Positions 7,216 to 56,096 of a DNA stretch of 64,000 bases are shown in pieces. Each line of letters begins with the position of its first letter. The stretch's first letter is position 1. Source of the stretch: an uncultured Candidatus Peribacteria bacterium. Lineage in GTDB: Bacteria > Patescibacteriota > Gracilibacteria > Peribacterales > Peribacteraceae. The position numbers and the translations under genes were made by a program. The notes under the pieces were generated by a model. It was not told the origin of the DNA. It saw only the letters and a program-made list of their open reading frames with translations, and did no database searches. The DNA lies in NCBI GenBank assembly GCA_964652185.1, contig CAZZDD010000001.1, positions 20,407 to 84,406 of the forward strand, given 5' to 3'.

Positions 7216-8064
7216 ATGATACCCCGATTTTTAGTAGTATTACAAATTGTTACAATGTTGGTTGGACTGCGAACCATGCCAACAAGCGCCGCCGATCTGT
7301 GCCGATTGCCCGATGTTGTGTTTCTGGGTGAGGGTGCCGGCACATACACCTTGCCCAACGGCTACGATACATTGATCGTGAAGCAGTTCAATCCGTTTCG
7401 CTTTGGCGCTGTTAGTGCCAACAGTGTCACCTTCACAGAAGCAAACAATGGCGGCTACGTCGCTCGTGCGTGGGCATCCACGGGTACAAGCGTGCCATCA
7501 GCGCACTTTGGCGAAAAGGTGTCACTAGGTACGATTGACGCAGGTATGCTAGTGCGAACAATGATGATCGATGATGACAACGATAATCGACTTACCACCA
7601 TCGTTAACGAGTCGGAGAGTGTCTACACGGTATTGCAGCCTGCGATGGTACAGTTGATCGAATTCACCACAACACATAAGGGCGAATACTTCATTGATAG
7701 CGCTGACAGTATTACGTTTTGGCCGGTATGTGCTCTACCATTCGTGCCTGACGATCCAACCGTGTTCCCGACCCACACGGCGACGGCCACACCATTGCCA
7801 ACCGGTACACCCACACCGCCATCAACAGTTACGCCTAGTGCAACGCCAACGGTTACACTGACGCCGACGCCGACATTTACGCCTAGCGCCACAGCCACGC
7901 AGACGGCAATGAATACGCCGACGGTGACCACTACAGCAACGGCTACACCTTCGCCAACATCCACGCCAACGTTAGGTGTGCCGACGGGACTGACGCCATT
8001 TCCGCAGGTGACGTTGCGCCCGGAGTGGCAGATGTATATATGGTTGCCGGATGTGCGGCGATAA
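7216..8064 (+). CDS. secreted/membrane-anchored protein with C-terminal Pro/Thr-rich low-complexity region
   Basis: Hydrophobic N-terminal signal-like segment (FLVVLQIVTMLVGL...SAA). About 80 aa of PT repeats (TPTPPSTVTPSATPTVTLTPTPTFTPSATAT...). AAAGGA upstream of the ATG. Confidence 0.7.
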   Translation: MIPRFLVVLQIVTMLVGLRTMPTSAADLCRLPDVVFLGEGAGTYTLPNGYDTLIVKQFNPFRFGAVSANSVTFTEANNGGYVARAWASTGTSVPSAHFGEKVSLGTIDAGMLVRTMMIDDDNDNRLTTIVNESESVYTVLQPAMVQLIEFTTTHKGEYFIDSADSITFWPVCALPFVPDDPTVFPTHTATATPLPTGTPTPPSTVTPSATPTVTLTPTPTFTPSATATQTAMNTPTVTTTATATPSPTSTPTLGVPTGLTPFPQVTLRPEWQMYIWLPDVRR

Positions 8065-25198: not shown

Positions 25199-25772
25199 TT
25201 CTTCGCTTTCGCTCTTGCCGCGTTTGCCGCTTTTGCCTGGTCGCGCTTGTTGCGCTCATGCTCCCATTTGCGCCGTGCGTATATTCGTGTGGCTAGCTCG
25301 TCAATGTAGTCGGCAGGTTGAGCGTGAACTTGTTCGTGCGTCCATCCGTGCTCTTCTGCCAACGTGACCTCCACGGGATACCGACTCGGCATAGGCATCG
25401 AGACGCCATGCATGATAGCGCGCTCGAATGCCTGCTCTATTCTTTTTTTTCGTCGGCGTCCAACTCCTCATTGGATTCGCCCATGAGCGCAAGCATTGCC
25501 TGTGCAGCGTCCTGATCTAGCGCTTCAATGTTTTCAGGCGTGCAGGCAAAGCCCTCAAACTCTGGACCCTCCCAGCTCACCATGCGCGCCTTGAAGATCT
25601 CCAATGACAATTCGGCAAAGTCAATCGATGCTTCCTGCGTGAACGGATCGACCTTGCTGCACTTACTGATCAGCTTTTGGCGCTTGCCGTAACTTAGCTT
25701 GCGGAACGTGATCTTGTGTTCGTCATCAAGCGCCTTGGTGACGTGATCGGATGTGGTGAAAAACTTAGACAT
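25195..25772 (-). CDS. tail assembly chaperone G-T-like fusion made by -1 programmed frameshift
   Basis: The -1 frame entered at A AAA AAA (25449..25443) is open. It is the same frame as the 72-aa ORF 25195..25413 (codon phase checked by hand). The product ends 1 nt into the TMP start region. Confidence 0.75.
25437..25772 (-). CDS. tail assembly chaperone (G-like, 111 aa)
   Basis: Position between the major tail and TMP genes. Ends ...DEKKE* across an A8 run. Confidence 0.8.
   Translation of the reverse strand: MSKFFTTSDHVTKALDDEHKITFRKLSYGKRQKLISKCSKVDPFTQEASIDFAELSLEIFKARMVSWEGPEFEGFACTPENIEALDQDAAQAMLALMGESNEELDADEKKE
25443..25449 (-). other. -1 ribosomal frameshift slippery heptamer A AAA AAA
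   Basis: Zero frame reads GAC GAA AAA AAA GAA TAG. X XXY YYZ phasing is satisfied. Confidence 0.75.
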
Positions 25773-26770
25773 TAATGACCCCCGCTGCCATAGGTGGCAA
25801 CGCCATTCGTGAGTGCTGCCGTAAACGATAAACTATCCGTGGAACTCGCAACCGCGTGACCGTCGAGCGTAACCGTGGTGTTGCCGTCACTGTTGGTGTA
25901 GTCGCCAACCGTGTCGTACTTGCCGGCCCAATCGAGATTGAGAATGCGTGTGGAATCTGTGATGGCTAGGCGGAAGAGTAATGTACTGTTGGCACGATAG
26001 TTGTCACGCTGATCAGCAACGACCGAACTGTCTTCAAGTTCTAGCGTGACGGAGTAAGTGATCTCTGGCTGCGTCCACTTGTAGTCAACATAGTAGAGCT
26101 GCCCATCGCCAACGGGTACAACCTTTAGGCCAGTTGTTACGTTGATTTTTGCCGACATCAATACACCGGTCATCTGTGTCGTACCGATAGTGCCGCCCGA
26201 CGCATCGATATAAAGCTTGGTGTGAGGGAATAGTGCCTCGTTTACACTCGGTGCCGACAACGAGGTTGTCTTGGCAGTTTGTTGCATCTGCCGACATATC
26301 CAATTACTAGAAACCATCCATGATTCGCCGAAAGAACCCGACAATTCAAACGATTCGACAAATCCGAATTCGCCCTCATATTGATCTTCAGCCACGACGG
26401 ATGAGCCAGTCTCAATGGTGTAAGTCTTAATCGTGTTGACCGTTGTGCCACCGTATGGGTAGTTGTAAGTGCGCACGTACGGACCCGTTCCCGATGGCGT
26501 AGCAGTCTTAATGCCAGCCTCGAAAATATGTGCCACTTGCTCGTAGGTGAGTGGCGTTGATGGTTGCGCCCATGCAGCTTGAATCTTGCCGTCATAGCTT
26601 CTCTCTGGCTGCATGAAAGTTCCAATATTTTCCGAAACTATGGCACGTTCGCGCGTGTCTTCGAGCATGGAGAATTCTCCACGCCATAAAGTGGTGGCTG
26701 GAACCGCCGTTCCCTTGGTCGATTCACGTCCTAACTGCGTATAGGTCATACTAAATGGTGAGTATGCCAA
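25772..26770 (-). CDS. major tail (tube) protein
   Basis: Position directly upstream of the G/G-T chaperones. Likely TTG start at 26770, 7 nt after AGAGGT. The track ATG at 26806 lies inside the upstream terminator stem. Confidence 0.7.
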   Translation of the reverse strand: MAYSPFSMTYTQLGRESTKGTAVPATTLWRGEFSMLEDTRERAIVSENIGTFMQPERSYDGKIQAAWAQPSTPLTYEQVAHIFEAGIKTATPSGTGPYVRTYNYPYGGTTVNTIKTYTIETGSSVVAEDQYEGEFGFVESFELSGSFGESWMVSSNWICRQMQQTAKTTSLSAPSVNEALFPHTKLYIDASGGTIGTTQMTGVLMSAKINVTTGLKVVPVGDGQLYYVDYKWTQPEITYSVTLELEDSSVVADQRDNYRANSTLLFRLAITDSTRILNLDWAGKYDTVGDYTNSDGNTTVTLDGHAVASSTDSLSFTAALTNGVATYGSGGH

Positions 26771-26793
26771 TTCGGTTACCTCTTTCTGTGAAC

Positions 26794-26839
26794 AAAAAAA
26801 GGGCATCCAACCAACACTTTCTAGTGTCAGTGGATGCCC
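26794..26839 (-). terminator. strong hairpin + U7 immediately upstream of the major tail gene
   Basis: Minus strand: GGGCATCCA..ACACT AGAA AGTGT..TGGATGCCC followed by TTTTTTT (26800..26794). Confidence 0.7.
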
Positions 26840-26873
26840 TCGCGTAATCGCAACAGCCGATATTTACTTGTGT
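26836..26873 (-). promoter_or_regulatory. conserved box, copy B (minus strand CACAAGTAAATATCGGCTGTTGCGATTACGCGAGGGC)
   Basis: 34 of 37 nt identical to 32561-32597. Both copies abut the 5' side of a hairpin-U7. Confidence 0.6.
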
Positions 26874-26903
26874 GTTGCGCCTGTACTGCTTATTACTACA
26901 TCG

Positions 26904-27107
26904 CTAATCGCTGATTTGATTCTCTCGGTACATTGCCTGATAACAACAACCATCAGAACGAAAACTTATTCCACCAACCGCACACCAACCGGTTTCCGCC
27001 ATATTGTTTACAGCCGCAACAAGCTCAACGACTTCAAATCCTCTGACAACGGCATACTCGTATGGTTCTCTAATTGGCTTGGATTTTGGCTTATAGACAT
27101 CGGTCAT
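26904..27107 (-). CDS. DUF1737-like protein (67 aa)
   Basis: YEYAVVRGFEVVELVAAVNNMAETGWCAVGG......YQAMYRE resembles the DUF1737 pattern. Confidence 0.55.
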   Translation of the reverse strand: MTDVYKPKSKPIREPYEYAVVRGFEVVELVAAVNNMAETGWCAVGGISFRSDGCCYQAMYRENQISD

Positions 27108-29567: not shown

Positions 29568-32498
29568 CTAGAGAGTAATGTTGTACGAAACCGCACTGGC
29601 TTCCGTATCCCGGTAGACCATACCGACACGCATGGTGCCAACAATCACAGTGCTATCACTGATAGCATCGCGTTGCACTTCAAACATCCAGCGCCGCTTG
29701 TAGCCAAGACGCCATTGATCGAAACGCACACCAAGAATAGAGCCCGTGGTGTTATTGCTGGCGGTATCAAGATCGACCTTGCCGGCAGTGTTCGCCTTCA
29801 GACCATATGTGGCATCTTGATTTGCACGGTGCATGTTTGCCGAGGCGAACACGCGTGCGCCGTAGATGCTGGTCAGCATACCCTCTTCAATGGTCGGTCG
29901 AATGAACACGTCACGAGTTTTAATCTCGGCAAGTTCAAGCGACTTCCAGTGAGTGTGCATATCGGTAATGAATGCAACTTTGGATTTATCAGCAGCATTG
30001 CGCCCACCCAAGCCCATGAGCTTAAGAGTTTCCAGATAATCCTCAAGCGTCAACGTGCCGGCGCTACGAGCATTGGCTGTATTCGTCACCAACGCCAACT
30101 TGCGAAACCCATCAAACAGCATGAACGCTTCAGTGCCGGCAGGTGTGCCGCCGATGTCGTTGATGTTCGTGGTGGCACCCGCTGCGGTGTCGCCGTCAAG
30201 GATGACGTGCTCCATCACTTCGGCAGCTTCCGCCACAATGTCACGGCGCAACTCGGACACCCACGGGATGAACGAATCTTCCTCAAGTTCGCCACTGTAG
30301 TTGATGGCTGCACCAAGCTTAGACACCGACAGGGTTTGCTTGGCAGTGTTCAGGCGGCTTGTGGTTTGCGTCGGGGTGACGCGGCCAGGATTGCTATCCT
30401 GCGCACTCGCCTGAGCAACCTTGTAGAAGGTTGGGCTTGTGCCAATGACGGGGATGATAATCGATTCGCTGCCTTGGGGAATTTCCACGGTTGGAATCTG
30501 CGCAGCAATAGGAGCGGCCAAACGAACCTTATCCCACAGCTGGGTGCTGTAGGTAACGCCAACCCACTCGTCACCATAGCTGGCAAGCGTGGACTGGTTT
30601 AACTCGTTCGCCTTCATCGACATGCCTGCGCCCTTCATTGCAGCCTTAGATGCAATGTATTCGCGCTCTTCGTCGCCTGTGGTTTCGGCAATGCGCACAG
30701 CCATCGCTTTGATCAGATCTTCGCTTGGCCCGGTGCTCATGCGACCACCGACACTAACGCCCTTTGCGCTGTTCAATACACCGGCGGCAAAAGCAAGGTC
30801 GTCAATACCAAGCGTGTCATACTTCCACAGGTTGCCGAACTTGGCTTGGTACGGCGCTTCTCCACCACCCGGCAAGCGTCGCGCTTCGGCAGCTTCGGCT
30901 TTTGCGGCTTCGATTGCAGCCTTGGCGGCGGTACGCTCTTCCTCGAATTGCTTTTCGAGTTCGACACGCACGGCTTCAGCGGAACTCTTGGCAGCGTTTT
31001 TTACTTCATTCTGTCGATCCTGTTCAGCCTTGACAGCGGCATCGCGTTGCGCGAAAACTTCCGCCACAGACTGAGCAACAAGATCCTTGACGTTCACTTC
31101 GTCCATTGTCTTATTCTCCATTACTTCAGATCGTTGTTGGTTGTCCGTCTCGCTTGCTTTTGCCGATGCCCGCCCTCGCAATGGTGTACTGCCATCACCT
31201 ATAGCTGCATCCTCTGGCGCTTGCTCAGAGTCCGGTTCTATGTCATCAGGCAGAGTAAGCCCCGCCTGTGTCCATACTGCTTTCATCACCGGCAATGCCA
31301 CGGCGTATTGATTCGCCGGTTGCCGGTTGCCTACTGCATCAAAGATACTCAGTTCCGCGACGGGCCAATGCGTGATGTGCCCGTCTTTGCCCTTGCGAAC
31401 TAGGTGCGTAATTGAGCCACTTGACGCACGTGCCACACCCTGCTTGGCAGCTTCCCACACGCGCTTGGCGTAGGCGCTTGCCTTATCCAGTACCACACGA
31501 TACCAATGTCCTTTGTTATCAACGTGGCTATAACTTGCTGTGCCAATGTATGCCGGCTCACTGGACGGACGGTTATTTTCGTCGTAGCCGTGGAAGTAAA
31601 TTGCCGGCACAGCCTTGAATTGTTCGGTGTACGTTTTCGTCTGCTCGCTGAAATACTCACCGTCAGAATCACGTCCGGCATTGTGCCCACCGAATGGGAC
31701 GCCCAGCACATCAAGTGCCCACACATCGCCATCTGATTTGATAGCACGCACAAGCCCGTAAATCACCGGCTGCGCTTCGGCTGTGGATTTCTCTGCGCTC
31801 TTGACGTTGATCTCGATCTCAACCTTGCCGTTATCCTCTTCGCAATCTTCTTCCTCACCCATGCCCATCAGCGGGAAGTCAAGCCGTTCACCGGCCCAAA
31901 TCAAGCTGACTTTTTCAACTCGCATCGGCGTTGCCGGAATCATCAGATCGGGCATCGGCATTGCCGCCGGTAGGTAAGCCACAGTGATATGTGGCGTAAA
32001 CCCGTGGTCGGATTCTTCGATATATTCGTCAACTTCTTCGCATAACTCCGCACGAAGGTCCGCCAACTGTGGGCTGTCGTAGTTCAGGAACAGCGGGTAT
32101 TGCCCTTCGCTTTCACTGAATCGTCCGTAGCCGTTGATCGTGCCTTGCAGTGGGCTGTAGCACTTGGCGCACTCGGTAATGGCGGCAACGATGTCGTTCT
32201 TGCTACCTGCAATAGTCGCCACGTCATCAGCCAAGTAAAGCAACGTCACGTGGTCACATTCGCCGGTTGCCATTTCGCCGACAAGACCACGCACGGTGCC
32301 AATCTGTTCGGGCGTCAGCATGAGCGCAATCATTGCGCCTTGGTTCGCCATCGGATCGATCTGCACTGCCTTAGTTTGAATCGTGGTCGTCATTGCTTCC
32401 GGCTCCATATCATTCACCGTGGCCACAATGCTCGTTGCAGCACTACGGATGTCGTTCAGTCGTTGCCGGTCATTTCGATTATTGCGTGCACCTGGCAT
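29568..32498 (-). CDS. polyprotein: 2H phosphoesterase - prohead protease - scaffold (delta-like coiled coil) - HK97-fold major capsid protein (976 aa)
   Basis: Single uninterrupted ORF. HxT motifs at H83 and H170. Protease-like GVPFGGHNAGRDSDGEYFS...AIYFHGYD...SSGSITH. AEK-rich coiled coil. C-terminal HK97-type MCP (LNQSTLASYGDEWVG...KQTLSVSKLGAAINYSGELEEDS...ILDGDT...FEVQRD). Confidence 0.85.
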   Translation of the reverse strand: MPGARNNRNDRQRLNDIRSAATSIVATVNDMEPEAMTTTIQTKAVQIDPMANQGAMIALMLTPEQIGTVRGLVGEMATGECDHVTLLYLADDVATIAGSKNDIVAAITECAKCYSPLQGTINGYGRFSESEGQYPLFLNYDSPQLADLRAELCEEVDEYIEESDHGFTPHITVAYLPAAMPMPDLMIPATPMRVEKVSLIWAGERLDFPLMGMGEEEDCEEDNGKVEIEINVKSAEKSTAEAQPVIYGLVRAIKSDGDVWALDVLGVPFGGHNAGRDSDGEYFSEQTKTYTEQFKAVPAIYFHGYDENNRPSSEPAYIGTASYSHVDNKGHWYRVVLDKASAYAKRVWEAAKQGVARASSGSITHLVRKGKDGHITHWPVAELSIFDAVGNRQPANQYAVALPVMKAVWTQAGLTLPDDIEPDSEQAPEDAAIGDGSTPLRGRASAKASETDNQQRSEVMENKTMDEVNVKDLVAQSVAEVFAQRDAAVKAEQDRQNEVKNAAKSSAEAVRVELEKQFEEERTAAKAAIEAAKAEAAEARRLPGGGEAPYQAKFGNLWKYDTLGIDDLAFAAGVLNSAKGVSVGGRMSTGPSEDLIKAMAVRIAETTGDEEREYIASKAAMKGAGMSMKANELNQSTLASYGDEWVGVTYSTQLWDKVRLAAPIAAQIPTVEIPQGSESIIIPVIGTSPTFYKVAQASAQDSNPGRVTPTQTTSRLNTAKQTLSVSKLGAAINYSGELEEDSFIPWVSELRRDIVAEAAEVMEHVILDGDTAAGATTNINDIGGTPAGTEAFMLFDGFRKLALVTNTANARSAGTLTLEDYLETLKLMGLGGRNAADKSKVAFITDMHTHWKSLELAEIKTRDVFIRPTIEEGMLTSIYGARVFASANMHRANQDATYGLKANTAGKVDLDTASNNTTGSILGVRFDQWRLGYKRRWMFEVQRDAISDSTVIVGTMRVGMVYRDTEASAVSYNITL
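31860..32340 (-). other. 2H phosphoesterase (LigT/CPDase-like) domain within the capsid polyprotein
   Basis: GAMIALML...ECDHVTLLYL (motif 1) and FTPHITVAYL (motif 2), 87 aa apart, each H-x-T followed by hydrophobics. C-terminal VSLIWAGERLDFPL strand. Confidence 0.7.
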
Positions 32499-32520: not shown

Positions 32521-32564
32521 AAAAAAAGGGCGAGACAGACAACCTTTCGGTCATCGTCTCGCCC
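32521..32564 (-). terminator. strong hairpin + U7, 22 nt upstream of the capsid polyprotein ATG
   Basis: Minus strand: GGGCGAGAC..GACC GAAA GGTT..GTCTCGCCC then TTTTTTT (32527..32521). Confidence 0.7.
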
Positions 32565-32597
32565 TCGCGTAATCGCAACAGCAAATATTTAGTTGTG
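32561..32597 (-). promoter_or_regulatory. conserved box, copy A (minus strand CACAACTAAATATTTGCTGTTGCGATTACGCGAGGGC)
   Basis: 34 of 37 nt identical to 26836-26873. Same position relative to a hairpin-U7. Confidence 0.6.
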
Positions 32598-32759: not shown

Positions 32760-32788
32760 ATTATATCACTAGCTTACCGAATCGTCAA
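32760..32788 (-). promoter_or_regulatory. sigma70-type promoter TTGACG-17 nt-TATAAT with TG extension
   Basis: Minus strand: TTGACG (32788..32783), 17-nt spacer ending TGA, TATAAT (32765..32760). Lies in the 413-nt non-coding gap upstream of the capsid gene. Confidence 0.65.
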
Positions 32789-33760: not shown

Positions 33761-34126
33761 TCATCTTACTCGCTTCTCCTTCGTCCGTGGCAACTCGATA
33801 AACAATAGGTCGCCATTTGTAAATTTTATCTTGTATACAATTGTATCAGCGTCAGGATTGGCGTGGATACTACTTTGCGTGCTTTTTATCACAGCACCAC
33901 TTTCAAGCTTTTCCAGAAACTCACGCAAATTATCTATATTGATTGTTCGTTTCTGTGGACCTTGGATCGATTGCTCTCCCCTCAGTGCCCTTCTTGCATC
34001 ATAGCCACGTCTAGTCATTTCGCCTTCAATCTCGATCAGCGTCATTCGATCAATGGGAATGCGCCATGCGACTTTGTAAGAAGCCATTAAATCGTCAAGG
34101 CTCTGTTCGGACAATGGAATTTTCAT
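33761..34126 (-). CDS. hypothetical protein (121 aa), AT-rich island
   Basis: ATGA coupling. Starts MKIPLSEQSL and ends LPRTKEKRVR. Confidence 0.5.
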   Translation of the reverse strand: MKIPLSEQSLDDLMASYKVAWRIPIDRMTLIEIEGEMTRRGYDARRALRGEQSIQGPQKRTINIDNLREFLEKLESGAVIKSTQSSIHANPDADTIVYKIKFTNGDLLFIELPRTKEKRVR

Positions 34127-34320
34127 CGCACCCGCTTCTCTTTCGTTGTTGGCAATCCGAACGCATTTTCAAGTGCAGTCAATCCACGGATGCGTTCTTC
34201 GCGCTCACGAATAGTGATATAGTTTTCCAGGCGCAGAACGCGCATAATGAGATCGTTGTATTGCTGCGATGATAGTTGGATTATAGCATTGTCCGGCAAT
34301 GGTTTCAAACTATCGCTCAT
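34123..34320 (-). CDS. hypothetical helical protein (65 aa), AT-rich island
   Basis: ATGA coupling. Ends LPTTKEKRVR, the same tail as the next gene. Confidence 0.5.
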   Translation of the reverse strand: MSDSLKPLPDNAIIQLSSQQYNDLIMRVLRLENYITIREREERIRGLTALENAFGLPTTKEKRVR

Positions 34321-54992: not shown

Positions 54993-55183
54993 ATGATCGC
55001 CCCGCCACGTTGCAACGAAAGAAAGCGATCCCAGTCCCAAGAATAAACCGCATCTTGTGGATTTAGTCCCGGCACAAGCGGACATATCTGCCCGATCATC
55101 CACTCAGATAGCGCAGCCTGAAGAGACTCGTCTGTCTCGCTGATTCGGATATAGTTGATGCCATCGTGATTGTGAATTTGCAT
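54983..55183 (-). CDS. hypothetical protein (66 aa), first ORF after the structured leader
   Basis: ORF with a weak SD. No TM segment, so not an obvious holin. Confidence 0.4.
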   Translation of the reverse strand: MQIHNHDGINYIRISETDESLQAALSEWMIGQICPLVPGLNPQDAVYSWDWDRFLSLQRGGAIIWD

Positions 55184-55341
55184 GAATTTCTAATTCCGTG
55201 ATATGAGCCGGTCCCGCCCCGGCTATAGATCGGCCCTGCCCTCACGGGTTCGGACTCTGCTGCGCAGATGGCGTCTCACCGATTACTCTACTAGAGGGAC
55301 TATCACAGCGTGTCATCTCGCCACGCCGCCACATCACCAAT

Positions 55342-55391
55342 AAAAAAAACGGGCGCAGAAACTAACACGAATGTGCTAATCTCTGCGCCCG
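55342..55391 (-). terminator. strong rho-independent terminator (hairpin + U8)
   Basis: Minus strand: CGGGCGCAGA..UAGCAC AUUC GUGUUA..UCUGCGCCCG followed by TTTTTTTT (55349..55342). Confidence 0.8.
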
Positions 55392-55434
55392 TTGACAGTA
55401 CAGTTACGCTGTTGCTATTTTACTGAACGATGAA

Positions 55435-55626
55435 TCAGTTCAGTTTTATTTTTCGTTTCGGTGGCTGGAAGTCTACAATTGCGGTGTCTTGATTCGGTAG
55501 AATGCTGATCACCACAGTGCATCCCTCTCGTTTGGCGATCATGAGTAACGCAGCTAAGTTGTCATTAAGCTGATCAGTAATCCGCTCAATAATTATTCTT
55601 GCTTTTGCCTCTGTCGCCTCTGTCAT
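55435..55626 (-). CDS. small early protein (63 aa)
   Basis: GGTGGTG upstream of the ATG. Bracketed by two promoters upstream and a terminator downstream. No motif. Confidence 0.6.
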   Translation of the reverse strand: MTEATEAKARIIIERITDQLNDNLAALLMIAKREGCTVVISILPNQDTAIVDFQPPKRKIKLN

Positions 55627-55904: not shown

Positions 55905-56096
55905 ATGACAAATACCGACAGCAAGTCGCAACGACGCCACAACAAGGAATGGAAAGACAGTACACGCAATGATCGTACCCGTGCCCGCGAGCAGGCACTG
56001 AAGGATATCTTGCAAGCCGCCGGATGGAGCAACAAGAGCGAACTATTGACGGCGATTATCAATGGCGATATTGCCGTGCCGCAAAAGCCAAGATGA
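55905..56096 (+). CDS. small basic protein (63 aa), candidate DNA-binding regulator
   Basis: GAGGAG upstream of the ATG. Arg/Lys-rich N-terminal half (KSQRRHNKEWKDSTRNDRTRAREQ). Function inferred from position in the switch-like region. Confidence 0.6.
   Translation: MTNTDSKSQRRHNKEWKDSTRNDRTRAREQALKDILQAAGWSNKSELLTAIINGDIAVPQKPR

What the first reader, a model, noticed from the sequence alone, without database searches (positions are those of the whole stretch)
26794..26873. Second copy of the box + hairpin-U7, inside the operon immediately before the major tail gene
**Seen.**
- Minus strand CACAAGTAAATATCGGCTGTTGCGATTACGCGAGGGC (26873..26836) runs into hairpin GGGCATCCA...TGGATGCCC (26839..26801).
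- U7 follows (26800..26794), then AGAGGT-7 nt-TTG at 26770.
- The annotated ATG at 26806 sits inside the stem. The real major tail start is therefore probably TTG 26770.
- Unlike copy A, no sigma70-like -35/-10 lies upstream. The DUF1737-like gene ends only 30 nt before the box.
- Conservation starts abruptly at CACAA. The hairpin sequences themselves differ.

The box is therefore the selected element, and the hairpin is conserved only in architecture (9-bp GC base, internal loop, short apical stem, tetraloop).
Basis: seen in the sequence. Interest (0 to 1): 0.6.

Follow-up and report, generated by a model that had tools for sequence, protein, structure and literature searches.

The report
Tagged terminator before phage tail-tube gene
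In an uncultivated tailed phage, the tail-tube gene, like the capsid gene, sits just behind a strong transcription stop signal joined to a conserved two-part RNA tag that can fold to undo the stop. It is most likely a switch that an unidentified factor flips to release late-gene expression.

Summary
A 37-nt box (26872..26836, minus strand) runs into a -26 kcal/mol hairpin followed by U7, 23 nt before TTG 26770. A 34/37-identical box precedes the capsid gene at 32597..32561.

Homologues show that the tube protein starts at TTG 26770 (MAYSPF...). The ATG at 26806 lies in the terminator stem and is not conserved.

The box has two parts:
- an A/U-rich motif (AAGUAAAUAUC);
- a small hairpin (GCU-G-UUGCG-AUUA-CGCGA-G-GGC).

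The last 4-6 nt of the small hairpin are also the first nt of the terminator stem, so the two folds exclude each other.

Twelve distinct copies from related phages keep the small hairpin through compensatory and wobble changes, while the terminator stems differ freely. A sister clade has a different tag with the same overlap logic. One more distant contig has a further tag type.

The most likely function is a terminator/antiterminator switch that needs a trans-acting factor and acts locally at each terminator. No N, Q, NusG-paralogue, CAT or ANTAR protein was found, so the factor is unknown, and no transcript data could be obtained. I class it as a new variant of a known kind, of moderate interest.

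The parts
26904..27107 (-). Upstream 67-aa gene, the last gene before the element. It is an insertion relative to distant relatives, where the 82-aa gene abuts the tube gene.
   Evidence: ORF list. No Pfam or PHROG hit. Distant tube homologues have the 'GVPARDLT' gene directly upstream.
26892..26900 (-). Possible weak extended -10-like TGTAGTAAT. This is uncertain. A related GTAGTA(A/C) sequence is conserved upstream of the B copies in relatives.
   Evidence: Read. The promoter scan did not call it.
26859..26869 (-). A/U-rich motif AAGUAAAUAUC, the 5' half of the box. The consensus AACUAAAUAUC is shared by tag types 1, 2 (capsid copies) and 4.
   Evidence: Alignments. Type 2 copies. Type 4 copies.
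26836..26857 (-). Small hairpin GCU-G-UUGCG-AUUA-CGCGA-G-GGC, the 3' half of the box and the candidate antiterminator. Its 3' GGGC is also the first 4 nt of the terminator stem.
   Evidence: Folds at -10.2 kcal/mol. 99-100% of cells paired over 9-12 copies, with 2 pairs changed on both sides.
26801..26840 (-). Terminator hairpin: GC-rich base, one bulge and a GNRA-like loop.
   Evidence: Folds at -27.7 kcal/mol, z = -7.75. Compensatory changes in 10 of 17 pairs across relatives.
26794..26800 (-). U7 tract of the intrinsic terminator.
26778..26783 (-). Shine-Dalgarno AGAGGT, 7 nt before the start codon.
   Evidence: Equivalent SDs in L172, L175, L007, L010 and L188.
25772..26770 (-). Tail-tube gene (332 aa) starting at TTG 26770. 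It has a tandem-domain tube fold.
   Evidence: Homologue N-termini. AlphaFold model pTM 0.77; Foldseek top hits are 8xan, the P74-26 tube 8ed0 and T5 pb6.
32561..32597 (-). Copy A box: A/U motif at 32594..32584 and small hairpin at 32582..32561, the latter identical to copy B.
32521..32564 (-). Copy A terminator hairpin (32564..32528) plus U7 (32527..32521), 22 nt before the capsid polyprotein ATG at 32498.
32760..32788 (-). Sigma70 promoter TTGACG-17-TATAAT with a TG extension. It drives the copy A leader.
   Evidence: The same promoter sits in L194 with a shorter leader.

Best explanation
Copy B is an intrinsic terminator fused to a bipartite RNA tag. Together they form a terminator/antiterminator switch inside the late operon.

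**Default state.** RNA polymerase coming from the head and connector genes transcribes the A/U motif and then the small hairpin. It then transcribes the much stronger terminator hairpin, which takes over the shared GGGC (up to GAGGGC). The polymerase is released at U7, so little tube, tape-measure or tail mRNA is made.

**Switched state (inferred).** A trans-acting factor binds the tag, most likely a phage-encoded RNA-binding protein made earlier in infection. It holds the small hairpin together with its basal GCU/GGC helix. The remaining downstream hairpin then ends 4 nt short of the U tract, and the polymerase reads through into the tube gene.

**Local action.** The same tag gates the capsid gene (copy A), so the two most abundant virion proteins respond to one signal. 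Because a second tag is kept at the second terminator, the action is probably local at each terminator rather than processive.

**Shown:**
- the element, its two-part conservation and the RNA-level pairing;
- the overlap with the terminator stem;
- the gene start.

**Inferred:**
- that termination is efficient;
- that a factor exists;
- that the factor acts by stabilising the small hairpin.
For: **1. The two copies are beyond chance, and only two occur in the window**.

**2. The terminator is canonical.** It is a 17-19-bp GC-rich hairpin followed by U7, with z about -7. In relatives, 10 of 17 of its pairs change on both sides.

**3. The small hairpin is kept at the RNA level.**
- 99-100% of cells are paired across 9-12 distinct copies.
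- U-A to C-G and C-G to U-A double changes occur, alongside several G-U wobbles.
- 0-3 of 500 shuffles reach the observed score.
- Wobble pairs argue against a DNA palindrome.

**4. The folds are mutually exclusive.**
- All type 1 terminators begin GGGC, which is also the 3' strand of the small hairpin's base.
- The terminator conformer is -32.6 and -33.5 kcal/mol (copies B and A). The conformer with the small hairpin enforced is -25.8 and -27.9 kcal/mol and leaves GCCC unpaired next to the U tract.

**5. A sister clade has a different tag with the same logic.** In type 2, ACGUC pairs with GRCGU, the first nt of every terminator there. This helix is 100% paired, and an inner helix alternates GUC/GAC with GCCC/GGGC.

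**6. A further type (type 4, L015) also overlaps its terminator by GAG**.

**7. The tags sit before the capsid and tube genes.**
- There are two per complete 85-kb genome G002.
- Capsid copies often sit directly behind an extended -10 promoter, so a strong promoter fires straight into a terminator.

**8. The hairpin evolves as a unit.**
- Between the window and L194, the promoter and terminator are nearly identical (1 difference in 36 nt of terminator), but the hairpin differs at 8 of 22 nt.
- In the window the copy A hairpin equals the copy B hairpin. This fits matching to one factor.
Against: - There is no transcript evidence.
- No candidate factor was identified. There is no N, Q, CAT, ANTAR or NusG-paralogue family among the ORFs of contig C1.
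- The basal helix shared with the terminator is only 3-5 bp.
- Several fairly close relatives lack the element before their tube gene: L190 (73% tube identity), L189 (77%) and L191 (69%). It is therefore dispensable.
- The covariation rests on few independent events.
- The A/U motif looks like a -10 element and could act at the DNA level.
Confidence: 0.5

Rival explanations
1. The element is a passive attenuator or insulator combined with an RNA stability module. The terminator is leaky and sets a fixed head-to-tail transcript ratio. In read-through transcripts the hairpin protects the 5' end of the tube and capsid mRNA after cleavage in the A/U-rich motif (RNase E-like), and it protects the 3' end of the upstream mRNA. 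No specific factor is needed.
For: - An A/U-rich single strand lies next to stable hairpins.
- The hairpin lies 20-35 nt before the SD in every copy.
- The element is absent from some close relatives, as expected for a tuning device.
- No factor was found.
Against: - It does not explain the lineage-specific, covarying small hairpin, or why its 3' strand must be shared with the terminator base in types 1, 2 and 4.
- A leaky stop in front of the two most abundant virion proteins would lower their expression, not raise it.
- Capsid copies sit directly behind strong promoters.
Confidence: 0.2
2. The element acts at the DNA level, as a promoter or a sigma-dependent pause and loading site in the manner of lambda Q. 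The A/T-rich TAAATAT is a -10-like element. It is either a late promoter whose transcript starts at the small hairpin, or a promoter-proximal pause site where a Q-like protein loads and makes RNAP resistant to terminators.
For: - TAAATAT resembles a -10 element.
- In several capsid copies it lies about 10-20 nt downstream of an extended -10 promoter.
- In C10, CTGACA-17-TATAAG overlaps the motif.
- A short promoter-to-terminator distance is the lambda pR'-tR' layout.
Against: - Copy B has no upstream promoter in the scan.
- In the capsid copies the motif lies inside the transcript made from a well-placed promoter, so it is not that promoter's -10.
- The hairpin conservation includes G-U wobbles, which indicates RNA.
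- A processive Q-like factor would not need a second site.
- No Q family protein was found.
Confidence: 0.12
3. Antitermination is processive and nut- or LoaP-like. The tag recruits a factor that rides with RNAP through many terminators. Copy B only reloads polymerases that started downstream of copy A or that lost the modification.
For: - The layout is bipartite, with a widely shared A/U box and a lineage-specific hairpin, as in boxA plus boxB.
- The LoaP leader likewise has a small hairpin, an important upstream sequence and an intrinsic terminator (PMC12691694).
- A 63-aa Arg-rich early protein exists at 55905..56096.
Against: - The tag abuts and overlaps each terminator, which processive systems do not need.
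- No NusG paralogue lies on C1 or C10.
- The boxA and boxB consensus sequences are not met.
- The Arg-rich protein has no homologue in C10, which carries the same tag, at E <= 10. It is also absent from the type 2 phages and from the C10-like G001, although only G002 is a complete record and the tool notes that an empty answer shows nothing.
Confidence: 0.13

Closest known systems
BglG/SacY/LicT-type antitermination (RAT RNA overlapping an intrinsic terminator, stabilised by a CAT-domain protein)
   Same: A weak hairpin lies just 5' of a much stronger terminator and shares its 3' nucleotides with the terminator's 5' strand. Termination is the default, and a bound factor would freeze the antiterminator. 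Action is local at each terminator, and several terminators carry the same tag.
   Different: There is no RAT consensus. No CAT/PRD protein was found in the phage. The context is phage late structural genes rather than sugar operons. An additional conserved A/U-rich motif is present.
Lambda N with nut sites (boxA + boxB)
   Same: The RNA tag is bipartite. One part is conserved broadly (A/U motif, like boxA) and one is a lineage-specific small hairpin (like boxB). It is a phage system that overcomes intrinsic terminators.
   Different: The sequences do not match boxA or boxB, and the loop is an ANNA tetraloop rather than a GNRA-like pentaloop. The tag abuts and overlaps the terminator. It sits in late rather than early operons and is repeated at each terminator. 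No N homologue was found.
LoaP (NusG paralogue) with the dfn leader hairpin and NusA-dependent terminator (PMC12691694)
   Same: A small leader hairpin essential for antitermination lies just upstream of an intrinsic terminator, and sequence upstream of the hairpin also matters.
   Different: The only NusG-family gene in the assembly is on another contig, C31. LoaP also reads through additional downstream terminators. The host and operon type differ.
Lambda Q with pR'-qut-tR'
   Same: In the capsid copies, a constitutive-looking strong promoter fires into a nearby terminator just upstream of late structural genes.
   Different: Q loads via DNA at the promoter and acts processively. Here a second, promoter-less copy exists, the conserved part behaves as RNA, and no Q family protein was found.
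HK022 put RNA
   Same: It is a cis-acting phage RNA that suppresses termination.
   Different: put is a two-stem RNA of about 70 nt that acts without a protein and processively. A constitutive antiterminator placed directly in front of its own terminator would make the terminator pointless.

Membership tests
Intrinsic (Rho-independent) terminator | GC-rich hairpin immediately followed by a U tract | tested here: met
   A 17-19-bp stem at -27.7 kcal/mol followed by U7. The stem is kept by compensatory changes in relatives. Termination activity itself was not measured.
Lambda N / nut | boxA consensus (CGCUCUUA-like) followed by a boxB hairpin with a GNRA-like pentaloop | tested here: not met
   The motif is AACUAAAUAUC and the loop is ANNA. 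No Rfam hit, even at E <= 10.
Lambda N / nut | Small Arg-rich N protein encoded early in the same phage | tested here: inconclusive
   A 63-aa Arg-rich early protein lies at 55905..56096. It has no family hit and no homologue in C10, which carries the same tag.
LoaP-type antitermination | NusG paralogue encoded with the target operon | tested here: not met
   PF02357 matches only once in the assembly, on contig C31. It does not match C1 or C10.
LoaP-type antitermination | Small leader hairpin upstream of an intrinsic terminator | tested here: met
   Compared with PMC12691694.
BglG/SacY RAT-CAT | Antiterminator hairpin whose 3' part overlaps the terminator's 5' strand | tested here: met
   Shared GGGC/GAGGGC in type 1, GRCGU in type 2 and GAG in type 4.
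BglG/SacY RAT-CAT | CAT RNA-binding domain protein present; RAT consensus sequence | tested here: not met
   No CAT_RBD among the Pfam hits of 128 C1 ORFs. The sequence is unlike RAT (from my own knowledge of the consensus).
Lambda Q / qut | Q family protein and a promoter with a promoter-proximal pause at every site | tested here: not met
   No Q family hit. Copy B lacks a promoter in the scan.
Any Rfam family | Covariance-model match at the gathering score | tested here: not met
   0 hits in the window. Only noise at E <= 10 around both copies.

The most novel reading that the evidence does not exclude
A new class of phage late-gene control. A nut-like bipartite RNA tag (an A/U box shared across lineages plus a lineage-specific hairpin) is fused to each terminator. 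It is read by a so-far unrecognisable small phage protein, or a phage RNA, that acts locally. Tag and factor co-diversify into at least three specificity types across an uncultivated phage group.
Probability: 0.3. Interest if true: 0.75.

Novelty: new variant of a known kind. Interest (0 to 1): 0.58.

Why it matters
- Late-gene timing in tailed phages is understood for only a few models (N, Q, gp55 and others).
- Here a whole uncultivated clade appears to gate its capsid and tube genes with tagged terminators for which no known antiterminator is encoded. It therefore points to an unknown factor.
- It also offers compact, orthogonal terminator/antiterminator parts: three or more tag types of 35-45 nt each.
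- It corrects the tube gene start.
- It shows that automatic gene calls can place start codons inside terminator stems (ATG 26806) or truncate the gene (298-aa calls).

Tried and rejected
**Searches that found no useful relative**
- DNA similarity to known phages: no match.
- Rfam at the gathering score and at E <= 10: nothing real.
- Exact and degenerate pattern scans:
  - viral contigs gave only a C10-like provirus;
  - GTDB genomes gave only two chance hits inside coding sequence.
- The covariance model found nothing in 150 'relative' genomes. These genomes are about 1 Mb each, so the 3-Mb bin is chimeric and the host is unknown.

**The search for the factor**
- Proteins shared between C1 and the otherwise unrelated C10 phage, which carries the same tag, are:
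  - the large terminase;
  - a Pyr_excise glycosylase;
  - an 81/83-aa membrane protein;
  - a 65/69-aa protein ending TKEKR(V/T)R.
- The 65/69-aa family has only four members in 5.8 billion clusters. All four lie 0-1.5 kb upstream of a type 1 tag.
- No homologue of it turned up for L010's phage, which also has type 1 tags, so it remains a weak candidate.
- The 63-aa Arg-rich early protein has no homologue in C10.

**Other readings tested**
- tRNA idea: a tRNA-Leu precedes one L015 copy, and a tRNA-like Rfam hit lies in L010. The window has no tRNA, so the tags are not tRNA trailers in general.
- Leader-peptide attenuation was rejected. The upstream stop codon is about 30 nt from the hairpin, and copy A's leader ORF is not conserved.
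- Pseudoknot between the loop and the A/U motif: no complementarity.
- The third terminator at 55342..55391 scores only 23.9 bits and lacks the overlap. I do not count it as a member.

Full report
**Observation**

All positions are on the minus strand.
- The 133-nt gap between the 67-aa gene (stop at 26904) and the next gene contains the following elements:
  - the 37-nt box at 26872..26836;
  - a hairpin at 26839..26801;
  - U7 at 26800..26794;
  - AGAGGT at 26783..26778;
  - TTG at 26770.
- The box matches 32597..32561 with 3 mismatches. None of 100 shuffles gave a match (also repeat family D14).
- Both hairpins are strong, at -27.7 and -28.8 kcal/mol with z = -7.8 and -6.7.
- A covariance model built from 12 copies gives only these two strong hits in the window, at 81.9 and 84.3 bits. 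The terminator at 55340..55463 scores 23.9 bits.

**Setting**

- The genes on this strand run without gaps in this order:
  - the capsid polyprotein (29568..32498);
  - the adaptor and connector genes;
  - the 332-aa gene;
  - two small genes;
  - a 1139-aa tape-measure-like protein;
  - the tail genes.
- Copy B therefore lies inside the late operon.
- No sigma70 promoter is called upstream of it. The phage's clear promoters are of the extended -10 type, TGnTATAMT, including the one 165 nt before copy A.
- The 332-aa protein is a tail-tube protein. An AlphaFold model (pTM 0.77) matches a phage major tail protein (8xan), the P74-26 tail tube (8ed0) and T5 pb6 at Foldseek E values down to 1e-12. 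These are tubes built from a fused tandem tube domain.

**Start codon**

- 444 homologues were found.
- Full-length homologues begin MAYSP(F/Y)S or close variants, which corresponds exactly to TTG 26770.
- At that position L172 and L188 use ATG, L007 and L010 use GTG, and L175 uses TTG. Each has an SD 7-9 nt upstream.
- ATG 26806 lies in the terminator stem and is not conserved.
- The 298-aa calls in public data start too late.

**Anatomy of the tag**

- The 3' 22 nt of the box fold as GCU-G-UUGCG-AUUA-CGCGA-G-GGC, at -10.2 kcal/mol.
- Twelve distinct type 1 copies were collected:
  - window A and B;
  - L007_B;
  - L010_A and L010_B;
  - L172_B;
  - L175_B;
  - L188_B;
  - L194_A;
  - C10 (L003), L004 and L195, three copies from an otherwise unrelated phage.
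- Over these copies the helix is 99-100% paired.
- The changes seen are:
  - U-A to C-G and C-G to U-A double changes;
  - several one-sided changes that keep G-U or C-G pairs;
  - loops AUUA, AUAA, AGUA and AUCA.
- 0-3 of 500 column shuffles reach the observed score, and slid registers give 35-62% pairing.
- The wobble pairs point to RNA rather than a DNA palindrome.
- 5' of the hairpin lies an A/U-rich motif with consensus AACUAAAUAUC.

**Overlap with the terminator**

- Every type 1 terminator starts GGGC, and often GAGGGC. That is also the 3' strand of the small hairpin. The rest of each terminator stem differs between copies, with 10 of 17 pairs changed on both sides.
- For the window copies the terminator conformer is -32.6 (B) and -33.5 (A) kcal/mol.
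- With the small hairpin enforced, the energy is -25.8 and -27.9 kcal/mol. The remaining hairpin then ends 4 nt before the U tract.
- The default is therefore termination. About 6-7 kcal/mol of binding energy could flip it.

**Other tag types**

- *Type 2.* Phages whose tube protein is 64-70% identical carry a different tag, type 2, before both the capsid and tube genes.
  - The carriers are L008/G002, L049, L094, L095, L096, L132 and L192.
  - It reads ACGUCUAACC, then a small hairpin, then CA, then GCGGCGU..., which begins the terminator.
  - ACGUC pairs with GRCGU, the constant first bases of every terminator there. This helix is 100% paired with two wobble-compatible changes.
  - The inner helix is GUC/GAC in the capsid copies and GCCC/GGGC in the tube copies.
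- *Type 4.* L015 carries a further tag, type 4 (AAUACUCAGGCUUAUUGAG joined to a GAGCC... terminator), in four copies.
- *Possible further type.* L086, a distant relative, has another small hairpin abutting a terminator before its tube gene.
- *Shared motif.* The A/U motif recurs in types 1, 2 (capsid copies) and 4, whereas the hairpins are lineage-specific.

**Distribution**

- A terminator before the tube gene is confined to the clade with at least 64% tube identity. It was found in 0 of 31 upstream regions in the 50-59% identity band.
- Some fairly close relatives lack it: L190 (73% tube identity), L189 (77%) and L191 (69%).
- The complete 85-kb genome G002 has two exact copies. L095 has a third copy behind a TGGTATAAT promoter.
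- In L010, L094 and L132 the capsid copy sits directly behind an extended -10 promoter. The A/U motif is therefore near the 5' end of the transcript and is not that promoter's -10.

**Concerted change**

- Window copy A and L194_A share the promoter and the terminator, with 1 difference in 36 nt of terminator.
- Their hairpins differ at 8 of 22 nt. The window's A hairpin is identical to its B hairpin.
- The hairpin therefore behaves as an exchangeable specificity unit.

**Mechanism**

- The simplest reading is a factor-dependent terminator/antiterminator switch acting locally at each tagged terminator.
- In architecture it is closest to the RAT/CAT systems. In its bipartite tag it is closest to nut sites. 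It also resembles the LoaP leader (PMC12691694).
- Membership in those families fails:
  - no NusG paralogue on the phage contigs;
  - no N, Q, CAT or ANTAR family among the ORFs scanned;
  - no Rfam match.
- Weak factor candidates are listed under Tried and rejected. None is supported.

**Limits**

- The host is unknown, because the bin is chimeric.
- The covariation rests on few independent events.
- Earlier notes of this scan on copy A reached a similar reading. They are AI notes and are not independent evidence.

Noticed in passing
window 55104..55345 (-) and L010 540..800: A GC-rich non-coding element of about 170 nt follows the third terminator and precedes the endolysin-like gene. It is homologous to a stretch just upstream of the capsid promoter and tag in L010. 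Shared cores are ATGTGnCGGCGTGGCGAnATGACACGCT and AGCCGGGGnnGGACCGGC. In L010 it lies next to a 145-nt Rfam tRNA hit. It has no Rfam family and may be a structured RNA.
   Followed up: partly
L010 ~7690..7980; also L011, L012, L015, L049, L055, L096, L115: The tube genes of several relatives are interrupted after about codon 14 by an intron-like insert of about 270 nt or more, often with an HNH gene nearby. Rfam gives no group I intron hit at the gathering score.
   Followed up: partly
window 34123..34320 (-), 33761..34126 (-); L003 1267..1476: Two adjacent small proteins (65 and 121 aa) and the C10 69-aa protein all end in TKEKR(V/T)R. The 65/69-aa family has only 4 members in the large protein database. 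All four lie 0-1.5 kb upstream of a type 1 tag.
   Followed up: partly
window 55905..56096 (+): This is the first gene of the rightward early promoter. It encodes a 63-aa protein with an Arg-rich N-terminus (QRRHNKEWKDSTRNDRTRAREQ) reminiscent of ARM peptides. No homologue was found elsewhere.
   Followed up: partly
contig C1 18097..18800 (outside the window, about 2 kb before its start): A 76-aa GerE/LuxR HTH protein is followed by a 167-aa protein with three repeats of CxxC...Y.KR.G.ERPxRLW. They may be late regulators.
   Followed up: no
whole assembly G000: The bin is chimeric. Contig GC ranges from 42 to 67% and the total is 3.0 Mb, against about 1-1.5 Mb in its 150 nearest relatives. The 95-kb contig C1 is probably a phage genome binned by mistake.
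   Followed up: partly
L192 1290..1410: The capsid copy of a type 2 phage carries two tandem terminators. The second is preceded by a partial repeat of the tag's 3' end (UUGACCAGCGGCG).
   Followed up: no
L015 764..1001: A tRNA-Leu(UAA) is followed directly by two tandem type 4 tag-terminator units. Another type 4 unit lies inside the intron-like insert of the tube gene.
   Followed up: partly
L008, L189, L191 upstream of the tube gene: A conserved element of about 150 nt with a long inverted repeat (GCTTAGGACG...CGTCCTAAGC) and the motif AACTATAGCA accompanies divergent HNH genes. It is probably part of a mobile endonuclease cassette.
   Followed up: no
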